Counted from the stretch's first letter, positions 56,802 through 64,000 are shown. The stretch: 64,000 nucleotides of DNA from an uncultured Clostridia bacterium (GCA_934178555.1 CAKPQL010000001.1:37243-101242), one strand, 5' to 3'. Numbers and translations: made by a program. Notes: generated by a model not told the origin, from the sequence alone.

Positions 56802-56999
56802 ATGTGGACTTATGATAAAAGATTACAATATCCAGTTAATATAAAATGTCCAAATCCAAGATTAGCAAAGGTAATTATATCTCAATATGGAGGACCTGAT
56901 GGAGAACTTGCCGCTTCCTTAAGATATTTATCTCAAAGATTTGGAATGCCAGACCAAAAATCAAAAGCAATACTAAATGATATTGGAACAGAAGAATGA
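56802..56999 (+). pseudogene. cotJC: cotJC (Mn-catalase family spore coat protein), 5' fragment of 65 codons only, interrupted by an insertion
   Basis: MWTYDKRLQYPVNIKCPNPRLAKVIISQYGGPDGELAASLRYLSQRFGMP...LNDIGTEE, then TGA. Homology is lost a few nt later. Full-length CotJC is about 190 aa. Confidence 0.8.
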
Positions 57000-57148
57000 G
57001 CCCATAAAGAGGACGCTCAAAGGGACATAAAAATATATTTCTATCAAGGATGGAGATGGGATATTTTTTAAGAGGGGTATAGCTACCCTATATGAAAAAG
57101 AATTAAAGCCAAAAAATCAATTGTGGTGCGAATAAAAAGGAGGAATTT

Positions 57149-57580
57149 ATGAGAAATATAAAAAGCAAAAAATAATAGCGATAGTAACCATATTGATAAT
57201 TTTATTAATGAGTTTAAGCGATTTTGTGCATGCCAGTATACAAATGAATGAAGCTTATTTATATAAAATTGAAGATTGTACTGCAAAACTAAGGTATTGG
57301 AGTGATAAGCAAAATAGATGTTATTGTTATTATACAGAGTATGTATACAAGGGTAATAGATATCCTGTATATTGCTTAAATTCTGACTTTGATCAGAGTA
57401 GGAGAATATAGTGCATATACAGTTGATGTTGATACAGTGCTAGATGATGATGTTATATAGAGAACTATCATCAATGAGTACCCCGTATAAATCCCTGAAG
57501 AATTAGGTGTTAACACTGTATTAGAGTTAATAATTAATCTATTTTATTCAAAAAATAAATATAATTATTATATATTATAA
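57149..57580 (+). pseudogene. decayed N-terminal fragment of a thioester-domain (TQXA-type) surface adhesin
   Basis: A signal peptide is split by an A-run frameshift. VYCLNSD...GEYSAYTVDV...LDDDVI*RTIINEYP(Y)KSPEELGV shows an in-frame TAG where Trp is expected and C-run indels. The gene stops before the TQXA motif. Confidence 0.6.
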
Positions 57581-57582
57581 CA

Positions 57583-57612
57583 ATAAAGCTTCCATCAGGA
57601 AGCTTTATTGTT
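57583..57612 (+). terminator. rho-independent terminator
   Basis: AATAAAGCTTCC...GGAAGCTTTATT stem. Confidence 0.65.
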
Positions 57613-57932
57613 AAGAATAGAGACGTAGGAGTTAGATTACAAATTTGAATTCTAGAAAAAAGTAATAATACCTGCAATAGAAAGAAACATTTCTAATCTA
57701 ATGTAAATGCATATAGTAAAAAATATATGTTTTTGTGTTAAAAATGCTTCTTTTGTAAAGTCGAAAATTGCATATTTTTCCCTAATCTTCTTCATCTAAA
57801 TTTATGTAAAAATAAAATTCATAAATTAGATATTAATGAAAAAATTTCATTGCATTTATTAAACTATAAATTTAAATAAAAGTGCTAAAAAGATAATAAA
57901 AAATAAAAAAAACTATAAGATTTAATAAAAAG

Positions 57933-57963
57933 TGAAACTTTTTCAATACATAAAAACTCTTAT
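57933..57963 (+). promoter_or_regulatory. ECF-like promoter motif, distal copy
   Basis: TGAAACTTTTTCAATACATAAAAACTCTTAT matches the proximal copy at 28 of 31 positions. Confidence 0.35.
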
Positions 57964-58036
57964 TATTGTAAACAAAAATATATAAAAGATAGTATATTAT
58001 TTGATAATTGCTAATGTTATAATAAAATAACAAAAA

Positions 58037-58067
58037 TGAAACTTTTTTAATATACAAAAACTCTTAT
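58037..58067 (+). promoter_or_regulatory. ECF-like promoter motif, proximal copy, 43 nt upstream of the sigma factor gene
   Basis: TGAAACTTTTTTAATATACAAAAACTCTTAT. TGAAAC is a typical ECF -35 element. Confidence 0.4.
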
Positions 58068-61154: not shown

Positions 61155-61214
61155 AATTTAATTATGGCATCCTTTTTTAGCTACATTTTGACAGGTTTTT
61201 ACCTTAAGAAATGG

Positions 61215-61247
61215 TATACCCTAGTTTCATGCTAGGGTATATTTTTA
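61215..61247 (+). terminator. rho-independent terminator
   Basis: ATACCCTAG...CTAGGGTAT stem followed by ATTTTTATT. Confidence 0.75.
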
Positions 61248-61854
61248 TTATATACAATATTATGTTTCAAAGAATTTTTTTAAAAAAATCATCTTGTTTA
61301 TGTGAGAGGTATTACGAAGTAATATATCGAAGTGGAATTAAATTAATGTCAGAATGCTTTAAAGAATAAAATTATTTAATTATATTGGCTTTCAAAGTAA
61401 ATTTGGTTATTATATAAATTACTAAATTTTGAATGATAGGAGAAATCTTATCCTTATTTTTTTATTAATATTGTTGTGTTGAAAAAATCGAAACTTATAT
61501 TAGAATGCGTATATGTGAATAATATCTTCATTTGTTTTGGACATTGTTCAATTTTATTAAGATTGGAGAATGTCATATGGAAAGGAAGAATTATTTAGTT
61601 GAAAGACTTACAAATATTATTGTAAATGGAAATAAATAAATGATTTATATTTTAATAATCATTATCTCCTTTACAATAATAAGTTTTACCAAAGAGAGGA
61701 GATATAAAAAGTAAAGGCACTCAGTAAAATGACTAAAAAAGAATTAAAAAAGCAATGAAAAATTTAGAAATTAAGTAGAGTTATATTTTAGCTCTATTAG
61801 TTTCTTCATATCCAAAAGTTGTTAGTAAAAAAACAAAAAAATGAGGCAAATAAT

Positions 61855-62271
61855 ATGATTGATAAAGGAAAAATTTTAAACCTATATTTTATAGAGAAAT
61901 ATAAACAAATAGCTATATCAAAATTATTAAATGTTTCAAAGTCTACAGTAAATCAAATTATTATGTCGAATGAGAGGTATTTAAAGGAGAATAGTAGACA
62001 TCAGAGTGAGAACAGAGCAGAGAATAAGAAAAAGACGATAAAACTATATTACTAAAGCAAAAAAGCTGATGAAACATACGAAAGTATGAAGAAACAACAT
62101 ATAGAAGCGAGTAGAGACTTGTCTGGTGGTCAAAAGCCAATTTCAAATAGAACATATAGGGAGTGTAATCCATCAATATACATATATATAATGAAAATAT
62201 ATAATGAAAAGAACAAATACTATATCTTGAAAAGCGGAATAAAAGTCGGAGCTAATGTACCTAAACGATAA
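61855..62271 (+). pseudogene. HTH protein typical of serine-recombinase elements, split by an in-frame TAA at 62053-62055
   Basis: N-terminal HTH (IAISKLLNVSKSTVNQII) and a C-terminal half (RDLSGGQKPISNRTYRECNPSIY...) lie in the same frame, separated by one stop codon. Confidence 0.55.
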
Positions 62272-62343
62272 GTTGGAAAATTATTAAAATTATAAAGCAT
62301 TTTTAAAATCTCTTTGCATACATTTAGAAAAAGAGGTGTATGT

Positions 62344-62481
62344 ATGATTATTGATGAATTTAAAAGTGATAGCACATTAATAAGATTTGATGATAGAGAT
62401 ATTGGAACTAAAGAAAATAATAAAGATATACTTGATATATTAGTAGGATTAATTATGAAAAAAATTTCAGAATATTCGTAA
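62344..62481 (+). CDS. small hypothetical protein (45 aa) upstream of the recombinase
   Basis: AGAGGTG RBS and an ATG start. Too short for the ORF track. Confidence 0.3.
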   Translation: MIIDEFKSDSTLIRFDDRDIGTKENNKDILDILVGLIMKKISEYS

Positions 62482-62555
62482 ATATATTTGTAATTTTATC
62501 TAACCTATGCTAAATTCACAACTATTAGATAAAATTAACAAAGGAAAGGAGGATT

Positions 62556-64000
62556 TTGGAAAGGTTATATAATGGTTATTCAAACGAAAAAATTAATGAG
62601 GTTTTAGGTGAATATGCTATATATTTAAGAAAATCAAGAGCAGATGTAGAGGCAGAATCTAAAGGAGAGGGAGAAACACTTGCTAGACACGAAAAAATAT
62701 TATTAGATTTAGCAGAAAAAATGGGAATCAAAATTGGAAAAATATACAGGGAAATAGTAAGTGGAGAAACTATCGATGCTAGACCAGAGATTCAAAAATT
62801 ATTATCTGATGTAAAAAAGGGTATCTGGAAAGGTATACTTGTTGTTGAAGTTGAAAGATTGGCTCGTGGAGAAACAATGGATCAGGGAATTGTTGCAAAA
62901 GCATTTAAAATTTCAGATACAAAAATCATAACACCCATGAAAACATACAATCCAAATGATGAATTTGATGAAGAATATTTTGAATTTGGATTATTTATGT
63001 CTAGACGAGAATATAAAACTATTAATAGAAGATTACAAAGAGGAAGAGTTTCATCTGTTAATGAGGGAAAATATGTAGGTAGTGTTGCACCATATGGTTA
63101 TGAAAGAGTAAAAATAAAAGGTGATAAAGGTTATACATTAAGAAGAAATTCAGAAGCTAATACTGTAAAAATAATCTATGACTTATATGCATATGAGGAT
63201 TTATCATTACACGAAGTTGCTAGAAGACTAAACAAAATGGGACTAAAACCTAGAAAAAATGATGAGTGGACAGTAGCAAGTATAAAAGATATTTTAGCAA
63301 ATCCTGTATATATTGGTAAAATTAAATGGAATGCAAGAAAAGAAGTAAGAATATATAAAAATGAAAAACTTATAAAAACAAGACCAAGAAATAATGATTA
63401 TATAATAAAAGATGGATTACACAAAGCTATTATTGATGATAAAACTTGGAAAATAGCAGAGGCAAAAAGAAGTTTAAATAAGTCACCTATATCACGAGTT
63501 AATACAGTACAAAATCCATTATGTGGGCTTGTATATTGTGCAAAATGTGGCAGAAAAATGAAAAGGAGACCATATACTTCAAAAAGTAAAGAACCTACAT
63601 TATTTTGTGAAAATACTAAATGTGATAATGTAAGTTCAAAGTTACATTATGTAGAGGAAAAAGTCATTGAAGGATTAAGAAAATGGTTGGAACAGTATAG
63701 ATTTGATTATAAAGAGAATATAGAAAAAATAAATCATAGCAAAATACAATCTATAGAAGAAACTATATTATCTCTTGAGGCTGAGGCAAAAAAAGAAAAT
63801 GACAAATTATTAAGCATTTTTAATTTTTTAGAAGATGGTACATATACAAAAGAAATGTTTAAGGCAAGAAGTGATGCGGTATCACAAAATGTTGCTAGAA
63901 TAAATAATTCAATTGAAGAGTATAAAGCAAGATTAAAACAAGAAAAAATTGTTGATAAAGAGAAAGCAGGTTTAGTGCCAAAGATCGAAAACTTATTAGA
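62556..64000 (+). CDS. large serine recombinase, 3'-partial (open to the window end)
   Basis: I translated this by hand. It has a resolvase domain (AIYLRKSRAD with the catalytic Ser, and VVEVERLARG), a recombinase domain, a zinc ribbon (CGLVYCAKCGRKM...FCENTKCDN) and a coiled coil. There is no stop before nt 64000. TTG start behind GGAGG. Confidence 0.85.
   Translation, partial: MERLYNGYSNEKINEVLGEYAIYLRKSRADVEAESKGEGETLARHEKILLDLAEKMGIKIGKIYREIVSGETIDARPEIQKLLSDVKKGIWKGILVVEVERLARGETMDQGIVAKAFKISDTKIITPMKTYNPNDEFDEEYFEFGLFMSRREYKTINRRLQRGRVSSVNEGKYVGSVAPYGYERVKIKGDKGYTLRRNSEANTVKIIYDLYAYEDLSLHEVARRLNKMGLKPRKNDEWTVASIKDILANPVYIGKIKWNARKEVRIYKNEKLIKTRPRNNDYIIKDGLHKAIIDDKTWKIAEAKRSLNKSPISRVNTVQNPLCGLVYCAKCGRKMKRRPYTSKSKEPTLFCENTKCDNVSSKLHYVEEKVIEGLRKWLEQYRFDYKENIEKINHSKIQSIEETILSLEAEAKKENDKLLSIFNFLEDGTYTKEMFKARSDAVSQNVARINNSIEEYKARLKQEKIVDKEKAGLVPKIENLL

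What the first reader, a model, noticed from the sequence alone, without database searches (positions are those of the whole stretch)
56802..64000. Spore-coat gene cotJC is interrupted after codon 65 by an element carrying a large serine recombinase (a skin-like intervening element?)
Sequence: cotJA and cotJB are intact. cotJC reads normally to ...LNDIGTEE and then hits TGA. The next two codons (GCC CAT, A-H) still fit the Mn-catalase E-E-x-x-H metal motif. After that, similarity is lost and unrelated cargo follows for at least 7 kb, including a large serine recombinase (62556 to the window end) that is intact as far as it can be seen.
Established: large serine recombinases (SpoIVCA, SprA and relatives) excise intervening elements from sporulation genes such as sigK and spsM in the mother cell.
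Inference: this may be a comparable element in cotJC, a late mother-cell-expressed gene, with the cotJC 3' part beyond the right end. The exact crossover cannot be placed. Either the TGA belongs to the element side of the attachment site, or cotJC also carries a nonsense mutation.
Basis: partly seen in the sequence, partly recalled or inferred. Interest (0 to 1): 0.7.

Follow-up and report, generated by a model that had tools for sequence, protein, structure and literature searches.

The report
Two recombinase elements split cotJC
The spore-coat gene cotJC of this gut Clostridium is cut at codon 65 by two serine-recombinase elements sitting side by side, its missing half lies about 11 kb past the window end, and the case belongs to a widespread but little-studied group of elements related in kind to the classic skin element.

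Summary
cotJA and cotJB are intact. cotJC stops after codon 65. A 7.27-kb non-phage element (A) follows, with a large serine recombinase (LSR-A) at its right edge.

On a 99.9%-identical contig that continues past the window, A is followed directly by a second element (B, 10.99 kb, LSR-B 60% identical to LSR-A). The cotJC 3' half comes after B. Joining codon 65 to that half gives an in-frame 210-aa Mn-catalase.

The TGA comes from the element arm. A sibling strain carries B alone, and another carries A, B and a third element at codon ~102.

Relatives of LSR-A abut a cotJC fragment broken at codons 61-72 in 41 of 70 informative species-level loci. A conserved 44-45-aa ORF precedes the recombinase; in type-I relatives it is preceded by a conserved CATACA box. 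Both halves are under strong purifying selection (dN/dS ~0.05).

Excision in the mother cell is inferred, not shown. cotJC has been listed as a target of such elements in two in-silico surveys, so this is a new member of a known kind.

The parts
56194..56544 (+). cotJA, intact (116 aa)
   Evidence: Pfam CotJA 1.9e-11
56534..56800 (+). cotJB, intact (88 aa)
   Evidence: Pfam CotJB 2.1e-27
56802..56999 (+). cotJC 5' half: codons 1-65 (...LNDIGTEE), then a TGA supplied by the element arm
   Evidence: Pfam Mn_catalase profile positions 1-66/284. Joined to L090 16796-17233 it gives an in-frame 210-aa CotJC.
56965..57026 (.). attL of element A. The cotJC B arm ends at 56996. A 7-nt core AATGAGC (56995-57001) is shared with the right junction, and the crossover is most likely at AA 56995-56996. 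The P'A arm is TGAGCCCATAAAGAGGACGCTCAAAGGGAC.
   Evidence: Comparison of the window, L001 and the A-free strain L007. The two arms of attP_A are imperfect inverted repeats (14 of 24 positions at the best centre).
56997..64000 (+). Element A, 7,272 bp. It runs on to about window-equivalent 64268, and its right junction is outside the window.
   Evidence: Precise presence/absence polymorphism against L007. No phage structural genes were found.
57150..57520 (+). Decayed ORF (signal-peptide protein broken by stops) inside element A
   Evidence: Read directly from the sequence; not analysed further
58110..58637 (+). Cargo: ECF-type sigma-70 family factor (175 aa)
   Evidence: Pfam Sigma70_r2/r4; NCBIfam sigma70-ECF 85 bits, above its cut-off
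58621..59790 (+). Cargo: 389-aa protein overlapping the sigma gene. It is a candidate membrane anti-sigma factor.
   Evidence: Gene position and a hydrophobic segment only. The only family match is a weak PepSY hit.
59817..60506 (+). Cargo: response regulator with a receiver domain and a Spo0A_C-like C-terminal domain
   Evidence: Pfam Response_reg 5.9e-14 and Spo0A_C 8.2e-5 (below cut-off). NCBIfam spore_0_A 54.6 bits against a cut-off of 200, so it is not Spo0A itself.
60666..61154 (+). Cargo: 162-aa protein with a signal-peptide-like N-terminus, followed by a terminator-like hairpin at 61213-61243
   Evidence: no family match
61855..62055 (+). 66-aa helix-turn-helix protein
   Evidence: Weak Sigma70_r4 / HTH matches
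62317..62322 (+). CATACA box 22 nt upstream of the orf45 start codon. It is a candidate -10 element of a mother-cell sigma (sigma-E/K type) promoter.
   Evidence: GCATACAtAtt...AAAGAGGTG...ATG is kept in about 21 of 25 aligned relatives while the DNA further upstream diverges. The sigma assignment rests on recalled consensus sequences.
62344..62481 (+). orf45: conserved 45-aa acidic protein directly upstream of the recombinase. It is a candidate recombination directionality factor.
   Evidence: A homologue sits in the same position in 33 related loci, including orf44 of element B. It matches 31 clusters, nearly all of proteins under about 80 aa, among 1.84 billion representatives. It has no Pfam or PHROG family.
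62556..64000 (+). LSR-A: large serine recombinase, first 481 of 535 codons. The stop is at about window-equivalent 64163.
   Evidence: Pfam Resolvase + Recombinase + Zn_ribbon_recom. PHROG integrase 9e-90. The closest solved structure is the SPbeta integrase SprA/YokA, 1.7e-42.

Best explanation
**What it is.** cotJC, the third gene of the cotJABC spore-coat operon, is split at codon 65 (the GAA of ...GTEE|LAHLEM, the Mn-catalase metal motif) by 18.3 kb of inserted DNA. The insert consists of two unrelated-cargo, non-phage integrative elements in tandem.

- **Element A** (7.27 kb, almost all inside the window) carries an ECF sigma factor, a putative anti-sigma factor, a Spo0A-like response regulator, a secreted protein, a small conserved ORF (orf45) and LSR-A.
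- **Element B** (10.99 kb, outside the window) carries copZ-copA, tetR, an ABC/FtsX exporter, mutL, a ZIP transporter, orf44 and LSR-B.

Each element ends with 'small ORF, then LSR, then att site'. Each has its own pair of imperfectly inverted P/P' arms.

**What is shown.**
- The junction sequences.
- The precise A-present / A-absent polymorphism between strains.
- The in-frame restoration of a 210-aa CotJC when both elements are removed at the GAA.
- The family-wide association of this LSR clade with this exact cotJC site.

**What is inferred.**
- B is the older resident. A arrived later by using attL of B (the true cotJC B arm plus B's P' arm) as its target.
- In the sporulating mother cell, a sigma-E/K-type promoter drives the small ORF (acting as a recombination directionality factor), with or without the LSR.
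- A is excised first, which regenerates attL of B. B is excised next, which rebuilds cotJC so that CotJC can be made late in the mother cell.
- The germ-line (forespore) copy keeps both elements.
For: **Structure**
- Contigs of the same species extend the locus. After LSR-A come copZ, copA, tetR, abc, ftsX, mutL, zip, orf44, LSR-B (529 aa) and then a 140-aa Mn_catalase gene followed by lipB and the fab genes.
- The junctions read as follows:
  - attL_A: ...GGAACAGAAGAATGAGC|CCATAAAGAGG
  - A/B junction: ...GTTACGAACAAATGAGC|TCCTTGATGTTATCAATAG
  - attR_B: ...GGTTCATACGAA|CTTGCTCACTTAGAAATGG
- Strain SRR24884188 has cotJC' joined directly to B's left arm (L007) and B joined to cotJC'' (L091). 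It therefore carries B only.
- B's left arm matches the P' arms of related elements such as L061 (TGAGCTCCAAAATGTTATCA) and L045.

**Restoration of the gene**
- In-silico excision gives a 210-aa ORF that matches Mn_catalase over residues 1-184 (2e-56). It is 92% identical to the intact CotJC of a sister species.
- Against that intact gene, dN/dS is 0.04 for the 5' half and 0.05 for the 3' half. Among split genes of six other species it is 0.12-0.31, and five of the six rejoin without a stop.

**Family evidence**
- Of 79 loci holding relatives, 54 hold cotJC fragments.
- Of 70 loci with at least 400 nt downstream of the LSR, 41 have a cotJC fragment broken at codons 61-72 within 600 nt of the LSR 3' end.
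- Of 36 loci with an LSR at least 58% identical, 31 hold cotJC fragments. The five without are short or truncated contigs.

**Candidate control module**
- The small ORF is conserved upstream of the LSR in 33 loci. In type-I relatives it is preceded by a conserved GCATACAtAtt box (about 21 of 25 aligned); type-II relatives, including element B, keep a looser CATA-type motif at the same spacing.
- The geometry resembles that of CD1234, the sigma-E-dependent directionality factor of C. difficile skin, whose transcription start is 14 bp from its ATG (PMC5025042). It also resembles GirX of the gin element (PMC5595907).

**Enzyme integrity**
- Both LSRs are full length with all three domains.
Against: - No excised circle, attP junction or rebuilt cotJC of this species was found. 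The exact rebuilt protein is absent from the 15-billion-protein collection. The attP_A junction is absent from the JGI metagenome and IMG/VR scans, but the species itself is also absent from JGI.
- Integration of A into an attL-type site runs against the usual LSR rule that attP pairs only with attB. B's P' arm keeps only 8 of the first 12 bases of the true cotJC B' half-site.
- The sigma-E/K assignment of the CATACA box rests on recalled consensus sequences. The match to either consensus is incomplete.
- orf45 has no detectable similarity to any known directionality factor.
- dS is saturated (1.5-2.0). The purifying selection could therefore partly date from before the insertions.
- The part of the locus to the right of 64000 was read from sibling strains (99.9% identical), not from the window's own genome.
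- CotJC is dispensable for spore formation in B. subtilis (as cited in PMC12122855), so selection for excision may be weak.
Confidence: 0.7

Rival explanations
1. Safe-harbour insertion without developmental excision. The LSR elements use the conserved GTEE codons of cotJC only as a reliable attachment site in a gene that is not needed during growth. They excise only for horizontal transfer, if at all, and carrier strains make spores without CotJC.
For: - CotJC is not required for spore formation in B. subtilis (PMC12122855).
- No rebuilt cotJC of this species was found.
- Bona fide temperate phages carry LSRs of this clade with a cotJC-like attP next to the integrase gene: Paenibacillus phage phiIBB_Pl23 (46.8% identical) and a 46-kb gut phage contig (49%). 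The site choice may therefore be ordinary phage biology.
- Up to three elements accumulate in one gene, as expected for a tolerated target.
Against: - Both halves stay open and under strong purifying selection: dN/dS 0.04-0.05 against an intact orthologue and 0.12-0.31 among split genes. In a genome of about 26% GC, stop codons arise quickly in unconstrained DNA.
- The small ORF + LSR module and, in the type-I relatives, its upstream CATACA box are conserved across the family.
- Element B holds a complete mutL and other housekeeping-like genes and is present in all three strain types seen. That fits a fixed resident better than a transient parasite.
Confidence: 0.22
2. Simple truncation. cotJC lost its 3' part by deletion or carries a nonsense mutation, and the recombinase element merely lies next to a dead remnant.
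For: - Within the window, and for 6.9 kb beyond LSR-A, there is no cotJC 3' sequence.
- An A-free strain still shows the TGA after codon 65.
Against: - The 3' half is present and intact 11 kb further on, co-oriented and flanked by a proper attR.
- The TGA in the A-free strain comes from the P' arm of element B, as in related elements.
Confidence: 0.03
3. Element B is not a mobile element but chromosomal DNA trapped between two cotJC halves by an old recombinase-mediated rearrangement. It can no longer be excised, so cotJC is permanently split even if A is still active.
For: - B's tetR, abc and ftsX genes are 89, 94 and 83% identical (protein) to chromosomal genes that lie 5.6 kb from an intact cotJ operon in a sister species.
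- B carries mutL.
Against: - B is bounded by P and P' arms of the same type as the compact relatives L045 and L061, and by an intact orf44 + LSR-B module.
- The two cotJC halves are co-oriented, which is the topology of an insertion, not an inversion.
- Both halves remain under purifying selection.
- A related element (L035) carries a homologous ftsX-zip cargo 9 kb upstream of its LSR.
Confidence: 0.05

Closest known systems
skin elements in sigK (B. subtilis SpoIVCA/Skr; C. difficile CD1231/CD1234)
   Same: - A mother-cell sporulation gene is split by an element that carries an LSR at its edge next to the 3' gene half.
- Joining at the att core restores the reading frame.
- A small element-encoded protein sits near the LSR, with a mother-cell-type promoter signature (for CD1234: sigma-E dependent, transcription start 14 bp from the ATG; PMC5025042).
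   Different: - The target is cotJC, a dispensable coat protein, not an essential sigma factor.
- The elements are 7-11 kb and have no phage genes.
- Two, and in one strain three, independent elements must leave to rebuild one gene.
- Excision has not been shown.
- LSR-A does not reach any curated NCBIfam equivalog cut-off.
SPbeta prophage in spsM (SprA/SprB)
   Same: SprA (YokA) is the closest solved structure to LSR-A, matching over the whole length at 1.7e-42. It excises during sporulation to rebuild a spore-envelope gene (PMC4191935).
   Different: Only about 27% identical. SPbeta is an active 134-kb phage. SprB has no detectable similarity to orf45.
gin element in gerE of B. cereus (GirC/GirX)
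   Same: - A non-phage intervening element.
- An LSR plus a very small directionality factor (GirX 6.5 kDa; orf45 has 45 aa).
- A composite nature with several serine recombinases.
- Crossover proposed at an AA dinucleotide (PMC5595907).
   Different: - gin is a single 28.6-kb unit in which only GirC/GirX act on gerE.
- Here each tandem element has its own att arms, LSR and small ORF.
- The shared junction is a hybrid of two P-type arms.
Earlier in-silico notes of interrupted cotJC
   Same: - Abe et al. [quoted passage not shown]
- Galperin et al. note a skin-like element in cotJC of Laceyella sacchari (bioRxiv 10.1101/2022.02.25.481979).
   Different: - Those are one-line observations in other taxa.
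- In the papers I could search there is no att-site definition, no recombinase clade, no tandem arrangement and no experiment.
- I could not read Abe 2013 itself.
SCCmec-type tandem or composite cassettes (CcrAB/CcrC)
   Same: LSR-bearing non-phage islands accumulate head-to-tail at one attachment site. CcrB and CcrC are among the best NCBIfam matches, though far below cut-off. The comparison of arrangement rests on my own knowledge.
   Different: - SCC elements insert at the 3' end of orfX without inactivating it.
- SCC elements share the same repeat at every junction.
- Here the gene is disrupted and the two elements have different arms and LSRs that are 60% identical.
Heterocyst-specific excision elements of cyanobacteria (XisF, fdxN element)
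   Same: An LSR-mediated developmental excision rebuilds a gene in a terminally differentiated cell. XisF is the top NCBIfam match to both LSRs (87-93 bits).
   Different: The scores are far below the cut-off of 375. The phylum and developmental programme differ.

Membership tests
Large serine recombinase (serine integrase) | N-terminal resolvase catalytic domain with a serine nucleophile, followed by a recombinase domain and a zinc-ribbon domain; about 450-700 aa | tested here: met
   LSR-A has Resolvase 2.4e-13, Recombinase 7.7e-22 and Zn_ribbon_recom 6e-7, with the YLRKSRAD motif near residue 26, and is 535 aa. LSR-B has the same three domains in 529 aa. Both match the PHROG integrase family at about 1e-88.
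Large serine recombinase (serine integrase) | Short att sites with imperfect inverted-repeat arms and a conservative crossover at a short shared core | tested here: met
   The insertion boundaries are precise, with a 7-nt (A) or 3-nt (B) shared core. The arms of attP_A and attP_B each pair at 14 of 24-25 positions at the best centre. The exact dinucleotide could not be fixed.
Sporulation-gene intervening element (skin / vfbin / gin / SPbeta type) | Interrupts the coding region of a mother-cell-expressed sporulation gene | tested here: met
   The cotJC coding sequence is split at codon 65 inside a cotJABC operon. Mother-cell expression of cotJ is known from B. subtilis and was not tested in this organism.
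Sporulation-gene intervening element (skin / vfbin / gin / SPbeta type) | Both gene halves are present and co-oriented, and precise excision restores an intact reading frame | tested here: met
   A 210-aa in-frame CotJC results after removal of A and B. It is 92% identical to an intact orthologue. The right half was read from 99.9%-identical sibling contigs, not from the window.
Sporulation-gene intervening element (skin / vfbin / gin / SPbeta type) | Recombination directionality factor expressed under a mother-cell sigma factor | tested here: inconclusive
   The candidate is orf45/orf44, conserved in 33 loci and preceded by a CATACA box in type-I relatives (a looser CATA-type motif in type II). 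No similarity to known directionality factors, no expression data, and the consensus comparison is from memory.
Sporulation-gene intervening element (skin / vfbin / gin / SPbeta type) | Excision occurs during sporulation and yields a circle plus the rebuilt gene | not testable with these tools
   Only indirect evidence: strain polymorphism for A and purifying selection on both halves. Scans for the attP_A junction and a look-up of the rebuilt protein were negative.
Prophage or prophage remnant | Phage structural, packaging or lysis genes | tested here: not met
   The PHROGs scan of element A proteins matched only sigma-factor, HTH and integrase families plus function-unknown families for the response regulator. 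Element B's genes carry metal-transport, ABC-exporter and mutL families.
Curated recombinase equivalogs (XisF, CcrB, CcrC) | Score above the NCBIfam cut-off | tested here: not met
   Best scores are 87-93 bits against cut-offs of 375-900.

The most novel reading that the evidence does not exclude
cotJC of gut Clostridia is a multi-site landing pad. Several distinct breakpoints are seen: codons ~25-32, 65, ~102, ~120 and ~136. Stacked heterologous LSR elements there would be removed in an ordered, last-in-first-out cascade in the mother cell. That would require LSR-A to integrate into, and excise from, a hybrid site made of a true cotJC half-site plus another element's P' arm. This would relax the canonical attP x attB selectivity rule of serine integrases. 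Cargo such as the ECF sigma/anti-sigma pair and the Spo0A-like regulator of element A would then let these elements tune the host's sporulation programme.
Probability: 0.3. Interest if true: 0.7.

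Novelty: new member of a known kind. Interest (0 to 1): 0.52.

Why it matters
- **Another well-defined case.** It adds a sequence-defined example to the short list of sporulation genes that are split by recombinase elements. 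It defines attB, attL, attR and the attP arms.
- **A specific recombinase clade.** A specific LSR clade with its own conserved small partner ORF (and, in its closest relatives, a conserved promoter-like box) homes to one codon of cotJC across many uncultured gut Clostridia, some Bacilli, and probably temperate phages.
- **A natural test of site selectivity.** The tandem and triple arrangements are a natural experiment on how serine integrases cope with hybrid attachment sites. This bears on their use as orthogonal genome-engineering tools.
- **Annotation.** Split cotJC halves are very common and are easily called pseudogenes. The 65-aa fragment alone falls in a 90%-identity cluster of 1,049 sequences.

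Tried and rejected
1. **Deletion hypothesis.** The first 6.9 kb past LSR-A lacked any cotJC 3' sequence, and the A-free strain L007 kept the TGA. I therefore first favoured a deletion. I dropped it when L007's right flank proved to be the P' arm of a second element and the 3' half was found behind LSR-B.
2. **'Intact allele in the same species' and a mosaic/gene-transfer boundary at window 56906 (L008).** Rejected. L008 switches at an exact 32-nt stretch shared with another species' cotJC, and from there on it is 98.6% identical to that species (L089). It is a k-mer chimera.
3. **MutL N-terminal protein search to walk along the contig.** It returned only fragments and not the wanted protein, so one search was wasted. 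The FtsX query then worked.
4. **Inversion models for the origin of element B.** I considered these after finding its cargo next to an intact cotJ operon in a sister species. None reproduces the co-oriented halves. The upstream ABC2 genes are not orthologous (25% identity), so there is no wider synteny to explain.
5. **Scans for the attP_A junction and for this species' cotJC B arm.** JGI metagenomes and IMG/VR gave nothing.
6. **Look-up of the rebuilt CotJC.** An exact-sequence look-up found no such protein in the collection.
7. **Paenibacillus cellulosilyticus LSR (42.9% identical).** No cotJC within 3 kb.
8. **Strict symmetry test centred on the AA dinucleotide.** Weak for attP_B. The best symmetry centres lie 1-1.5 nt to the left, so the exact crossover dinucleotide stays open.
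9. **Sigma-70 promoter scan.** At chance level.
10. **Rfam scan.** Only three tRNAs, all far from the locus.

Full report
**1. The observation**

The window holds cotJA (56194-56544), cotJB (56534-56800) and a cotJC reading frame that runs for 65 codons (56802-56996...LNDIGTEE) and then meets TGA. Pfam assigns the three to CotJA, CotJB and the first 66 of 284 positions of Mn_catalase.

tblastn with B. subtilis CotJC finds residues 1-69 here and nothing else in the 64 kb. There is therefore no second cotJC and no 3' half in the window.

From 62556 to the window end runs an open frame with Resolvase, Recombinase and Zn_ribbon_recom domains.

**2. Extending the locus**

Contigs that encode proteins identical to those of the window were fetched. 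ENA scaffold_464 (L001, L006, L090) matches the window at 99.87% over 13.3 kb and continues to the right.

The recombinase (LSR-A) is 535 aa. Behind it come copZ, copA, tetR, an ABC ATPase, an FtsX-type permease and mutL, with no cotJC sequence in those 6.9 kb.

A Logan contig from another sample (L007) shows cotJA-cotJB-cotJC'(65 aa, TGA) joined directly to the copZ upstream region. It lacks the 7.27 kb in between. The three junctions are:

| Junction | Sequence |
|---|---|
| attL_A (window) | ...GGAACAGAAGAATGAGC\|CCATAAAGAGGACGCTC |
| right end of A | ...CCTCTTTTTGTTACGAACAAATGAGC\|TCCTTGATGTTATCAATAG |
| A-free site (L007) | ...GGAACAGAAGAATGAGCTCCTTGATGTTATCAATAG |

Element A is thus a precisely bounded 7,272-bp insertion (window 56997 to about 64268) with a 7-nt shared core, AATGAGC.

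At this stage the data looked like a truncated cotJC, because removing A still leaves the TGA.

**3. An artefact set aside**

One contig (L008) seemed to show an intact 207-aa cotJC behind identical cotJA and cotJB genes. Its sequence matches the window up to cotJC nucleotide 104. From there on it is 98.6% identical to cotJC of a different organism with different neighbouring genes (L089). The switch lies in an exact 32-nt run shared by the two genes. It is a k-mer assembly chimera and is not used as evidence.

**4. The recombinase family points to cotJC**

Relatives of LSR-A were collected from one genome per species (79 loci, 87% down to 40% identity). Most are uncultured gut Clostridia. Lachnospiraceae, Lacrimispora, Anaeromonas, Christensenellaceae, Paenibacillaceae and Chengkuizengella are also represented.

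tblastn with CotJA, CotJB and CotJC gave these counts:

- 54 of the 79 loci hold cotJC fragments.
- 70 loci have at least 400 nt downstream of the LSR. In 41 of them a cotJC fragment broken at codons 61-72 lies within 600 nt of the LSR 3' end.
  - In 26 it is the 3' half, co-oriented with the LSR.
  - In 15 it is the 5' half, convergent with the LSR.
- 31 of the 36 loci with an LSR at least 58% identical hold cotJC fragments. The other five are short or truncated contigs.

In complete examples (L020, L030, L032, L045, L061) the element is only 4-10 kb (L019 is the same kind but has a one-base frameshift at the junction). attL reads ...GAAGAA|TGAGC... or a near variant that soon ends in a stop. 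attR reads ...ACGAA|TTAGCACACTTAGAAATGG....

The stop codon therefore belongs to the element's P' arm, and the crossover lies in the GAA of codon 65.

The right flank of the A-free strain, TGAGCTCCTTGATGTTATCAATAG, is not cotJC. It closely matches the P' arms of a sub-group of these elements (L061 TGAGCTCCAAAATGTTATCA; also L045 and L020). It looks like the left end of a second element.

**5. The second element and the missing half**

Walking further along scaffold_464 through the FtsX protein shows, after mutL:

- a ZIP transporter;
- a 44-aa ORF (orf44);
- a second recombinase, LSR-B (529 aa, 59.7% identical to LSR-A);
- the sequence ...TTTTGATAAGATTTTGGTTCATACGAA|CTTGCTCACTTAGAAATGGTAGGT...;
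- a 140-aa Mn_catalase gene, followed by lipB and fabH/D/G/F.

Element B is 10,986 bp (about window-equivalent 64269-75254). Its two arms contain the inverted motif TTGATAAnAT.

Joining window codon 65 to L090 16796 gives an in-frame 210-aa protein reading ...GTEELAHLEMVG.... It matches Mn_catalase over residues 1-184 (2e-56) and is 92% identical to the uninterrupted CotJC of a sister species (L097).

That sister gene supplies the natural attB: ...GGTACAGAAGAATTGGCTCACTTAGAAATGG.

The A-free sample also yields the right side of B joined to cotJC'' (L091). That strain therefore carries B alone.

A third assembly (L092) has A and B plus a further element inserted after ...YYTDHG (codon ~102). 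That element encodes an unrelated LSR (24% identical, with a DUF4368 domain) and a ParE toxin.

**6. Is the split gene alive?**

- Compared with the intact sister-species gene, the 5' half has dN/dS 0.04 and the 3' half 0.05, with 91-93% amino-acid identity at about 80% nucleotide identity.
- Among split genes of six other species, five rejoin without a stop, and pairwise dN/dS is 0.12-0.31 for both halves.
- In a genome of about 26% GC, a 146-codon frame would not stay open by chance.
- dS is saturated, so part of this signal may predate the insertions. Even so, the halves do not look like decaying pseudogenes.

**7. How it probably works**

*Shown:*
- the architecture of the locus;
- the att sites;
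- the in-frame restoration;
- the family-wide target specificity;
- full-length recombinases.

*Also shown: a conserved control module.* A 44-45-aa ORF lies directly upstream of the LSR in 33 loci. Examples are MIIDEFKSDSTLIRFDDRDI... in A and MNIVKEYIDEKTKIRIHDDYI... in B. It has no family assignment. It matches only 31 clusters, nearly all of proteins under about 80 aa, among 1.84 billion representatives.

About 22 nt upstream of its ATG, type-I relatives keep GCATACAtAtt followed by AAAGAGGTG, while the DNA further upstream diverges (about 21 of 25 aligned sequences). Type-II relatives keep CATA(G/T)TATTT at the same spacing.

*Inferred:* CATACA is the core of the -10 element recognised by the mother-cell sigma factors (sigma-E CATACAhT, sigma-K CATAnnnTA; recalled, not tested). 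The layout parallels two known cases:
- CD1234, the sigma-E/SpoIIID-dependent directionality factor of the C. difficile skin element;
- GirX, the 6.5-kDa factor of the gin element.

I therefore propose that the small ORF is the directionality factor and that its mother-cell expression triggers excision.

*The tandem problem.* Because the elements are stacked, two excisions are needed. Whichever element entered second used a hybrid site as its target and can reverse that reaction on the same half-sites.

Since a B-only strain exists and no A-only strain was seen, A is most simply the later arrival. It would leave first, regenerating attL_B. B would leave second, regenerating cotJC.

The weak point is that A must have treated attL_B as an attB. 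B's P' arm keeps 8 of the first 12 bases of the genuine cotJC half-site, which may suffice, but this is unproven.

**8. Cargo**

Element A has no phage genes. It carries:
- an ECF sigma factor;
- an overlapping 389-aa putative anti-sigma factor;
- a response regulator with a Spo0A_C-like domain (well below the Spo0A cut-off);
- a secreted 162-aa protein;
- a small HTH protein.

Element B carries copper (copZA) and zinc (ZIP) transporters, a TetR-regulated ABC/FtsX exporter and a complete mutL (495 bits against a cut-off of 180).

B's tetR, abc and ftsX genes are 89, 94 and 83% identical to chromosomal genes that sit 5.6 kb from the intact cotJ operon of the sister species. A related element (L035) also carries an ftsX-zip pair. 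The origin of B's cargo is unresolved.

**9. Relation to what is known**

- The closest solved structure is SPbeta SprA (1.7e-42 over the whole length, about 27% identity).
- The best curated family matches are XisF, CcrB and CcrC, all far below cut-off.
- Temperate phages carry LSRs of this clade with a cotJC-like attP just downstream of the integrase gene:
  - Paenibacillus phage phiIBB_Pl23, 46.8% identical, with GGTACAGAAGAG on the reverse strand next to CCATGGTGTTATCAATAAT;
  - a 46-kb human-gut phage contig, 49% identical, with ...CCAACGAA|CTGGCTCATTGATGTTGTCGG.
- The clade therefore spans phages and stripped-down elements.
- In the literature I could search, cotJC is named as a target only in passing:
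  - Abe et al. 2013, as cited in bioRxiv 10.1101/2021.11.22.469490;
  - Laceyella sacchari in Galperin et al., bioRxiv 10.1101/2022.02.25.481979.
- I found no experimental or family-level study. I could not read Abe 2013 itself.

**10. Verdict**

It is a skin/gin-like intervening arrangement in cotJC, and the 3' half lies beyond the window.

They belong to a large, target-specific recombinase clade with a conserved small partner gene.

Developmental excision is well motivated but unproven. I rate this as a new member of a known kind, of moderate interest. The tandem hybrid junction is the most unusual and testable aspect.

Noticed in passing
L092 16905-20947; also L012, L014, L022, L026, L027, L035, L039: A second, unrelated element family targets cotJC at codon ~102 (YYTDHG|V). 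It has a 521-aa LSR with a DUF4368 domain and a ParE-type toxin pair. The LSR is 89-94% identical across at least seven species whose cotJC genes differ far more, which suggests recent horizontal spread.
   Followed up: partly
L077, L078, L084, L088 (codon ~25-32); L038 (codon ~120); L028 (codon ~136): Further break points inside cotJC occur in loci of the same LSR survey, so cotJC is interrupted at several distinct positions in different lineages.
   Followed up: no
L090 12356-14056 (about window-equivalent 70815-72515): Element B contains a complete mutL (TIGR00585, 495 bits) whose start codon abuts the stop of the FtsX permease gene. Whether it is the organism's only mutL is unknown. If it is, a core repair gene sits on excisable DNA.
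   Followed up: partly
one search hit list (for example P0128, P0136, P0150): A search with the MutL N-terminus returned only 98-197-aa N-terminal MutL fragments, some on contigs longer than 100 kb. This could be a scoring or contig-end artefact, or it could mean that mutL is also often split in these bacteria.
   Followed up: no
L008 4690-4722 (window 56874-56905): A Logan contig joins two species at a shared 32-nt stretch of cotJC and so mimics an intact allele. Contigs L003 and L009 break at the same point.
   Followed up: yes
window 57150-57520: A decayed ORF lies inside element A. It has a signal-peptide-like start (MRNIKSKK...) and is broken by several stops. It is followed by a strong hairpin at about 57578-57613.
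   Followed up: no
window 58110-60506; L035 6930-8744: Element A carries an ECF sigma factor, a putative anti-sigma factor and a Spo0A_C-like response regulator. A related element (L035) also carries, by eye, a Spo0A_C-like ORF and small sigma-like ORFs (not scanned). Regulators that might act on sporulation may be recurrent cargo.
   Followed up: partly
L097 8535-12370 and 17978-19196: In a sister species the close homologues of element B's tetR-abc-ftsX genes are chromosomal. They lie 5.6 kb from an intact, oppositely oriented cotJABC operon. In strains L096 and L099 a Mob_Pre relaxase element sits where the cotJ operon lies in L097.
   Followed up: partly
L094 3096-3180 (Paenibacillus phage phiIBB_Pl23); L095 3075-3140 (gut phage MT835739): Sequenced temperate phages with LSRs 47-49% identical to LSR-A have cotJC-like attP sequences directly after the integrase gene. 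They probably integrate into cotJC. I found no report of this.
   Followed up: partly
L019 about 7550-7565: The cotJC 5' half of this MAG has a one-base insertion just before the junction (GATATACGGAACTGAAGAATGA). This is either a sequencing error or a real frameshift in one carrier.
   Followed up: no
window 56136-56163: Upstream of cotJA, AC-N17-CATATTATG resembles a sigma-K-type promoter. This was seen by eye only.
   Followed up: no
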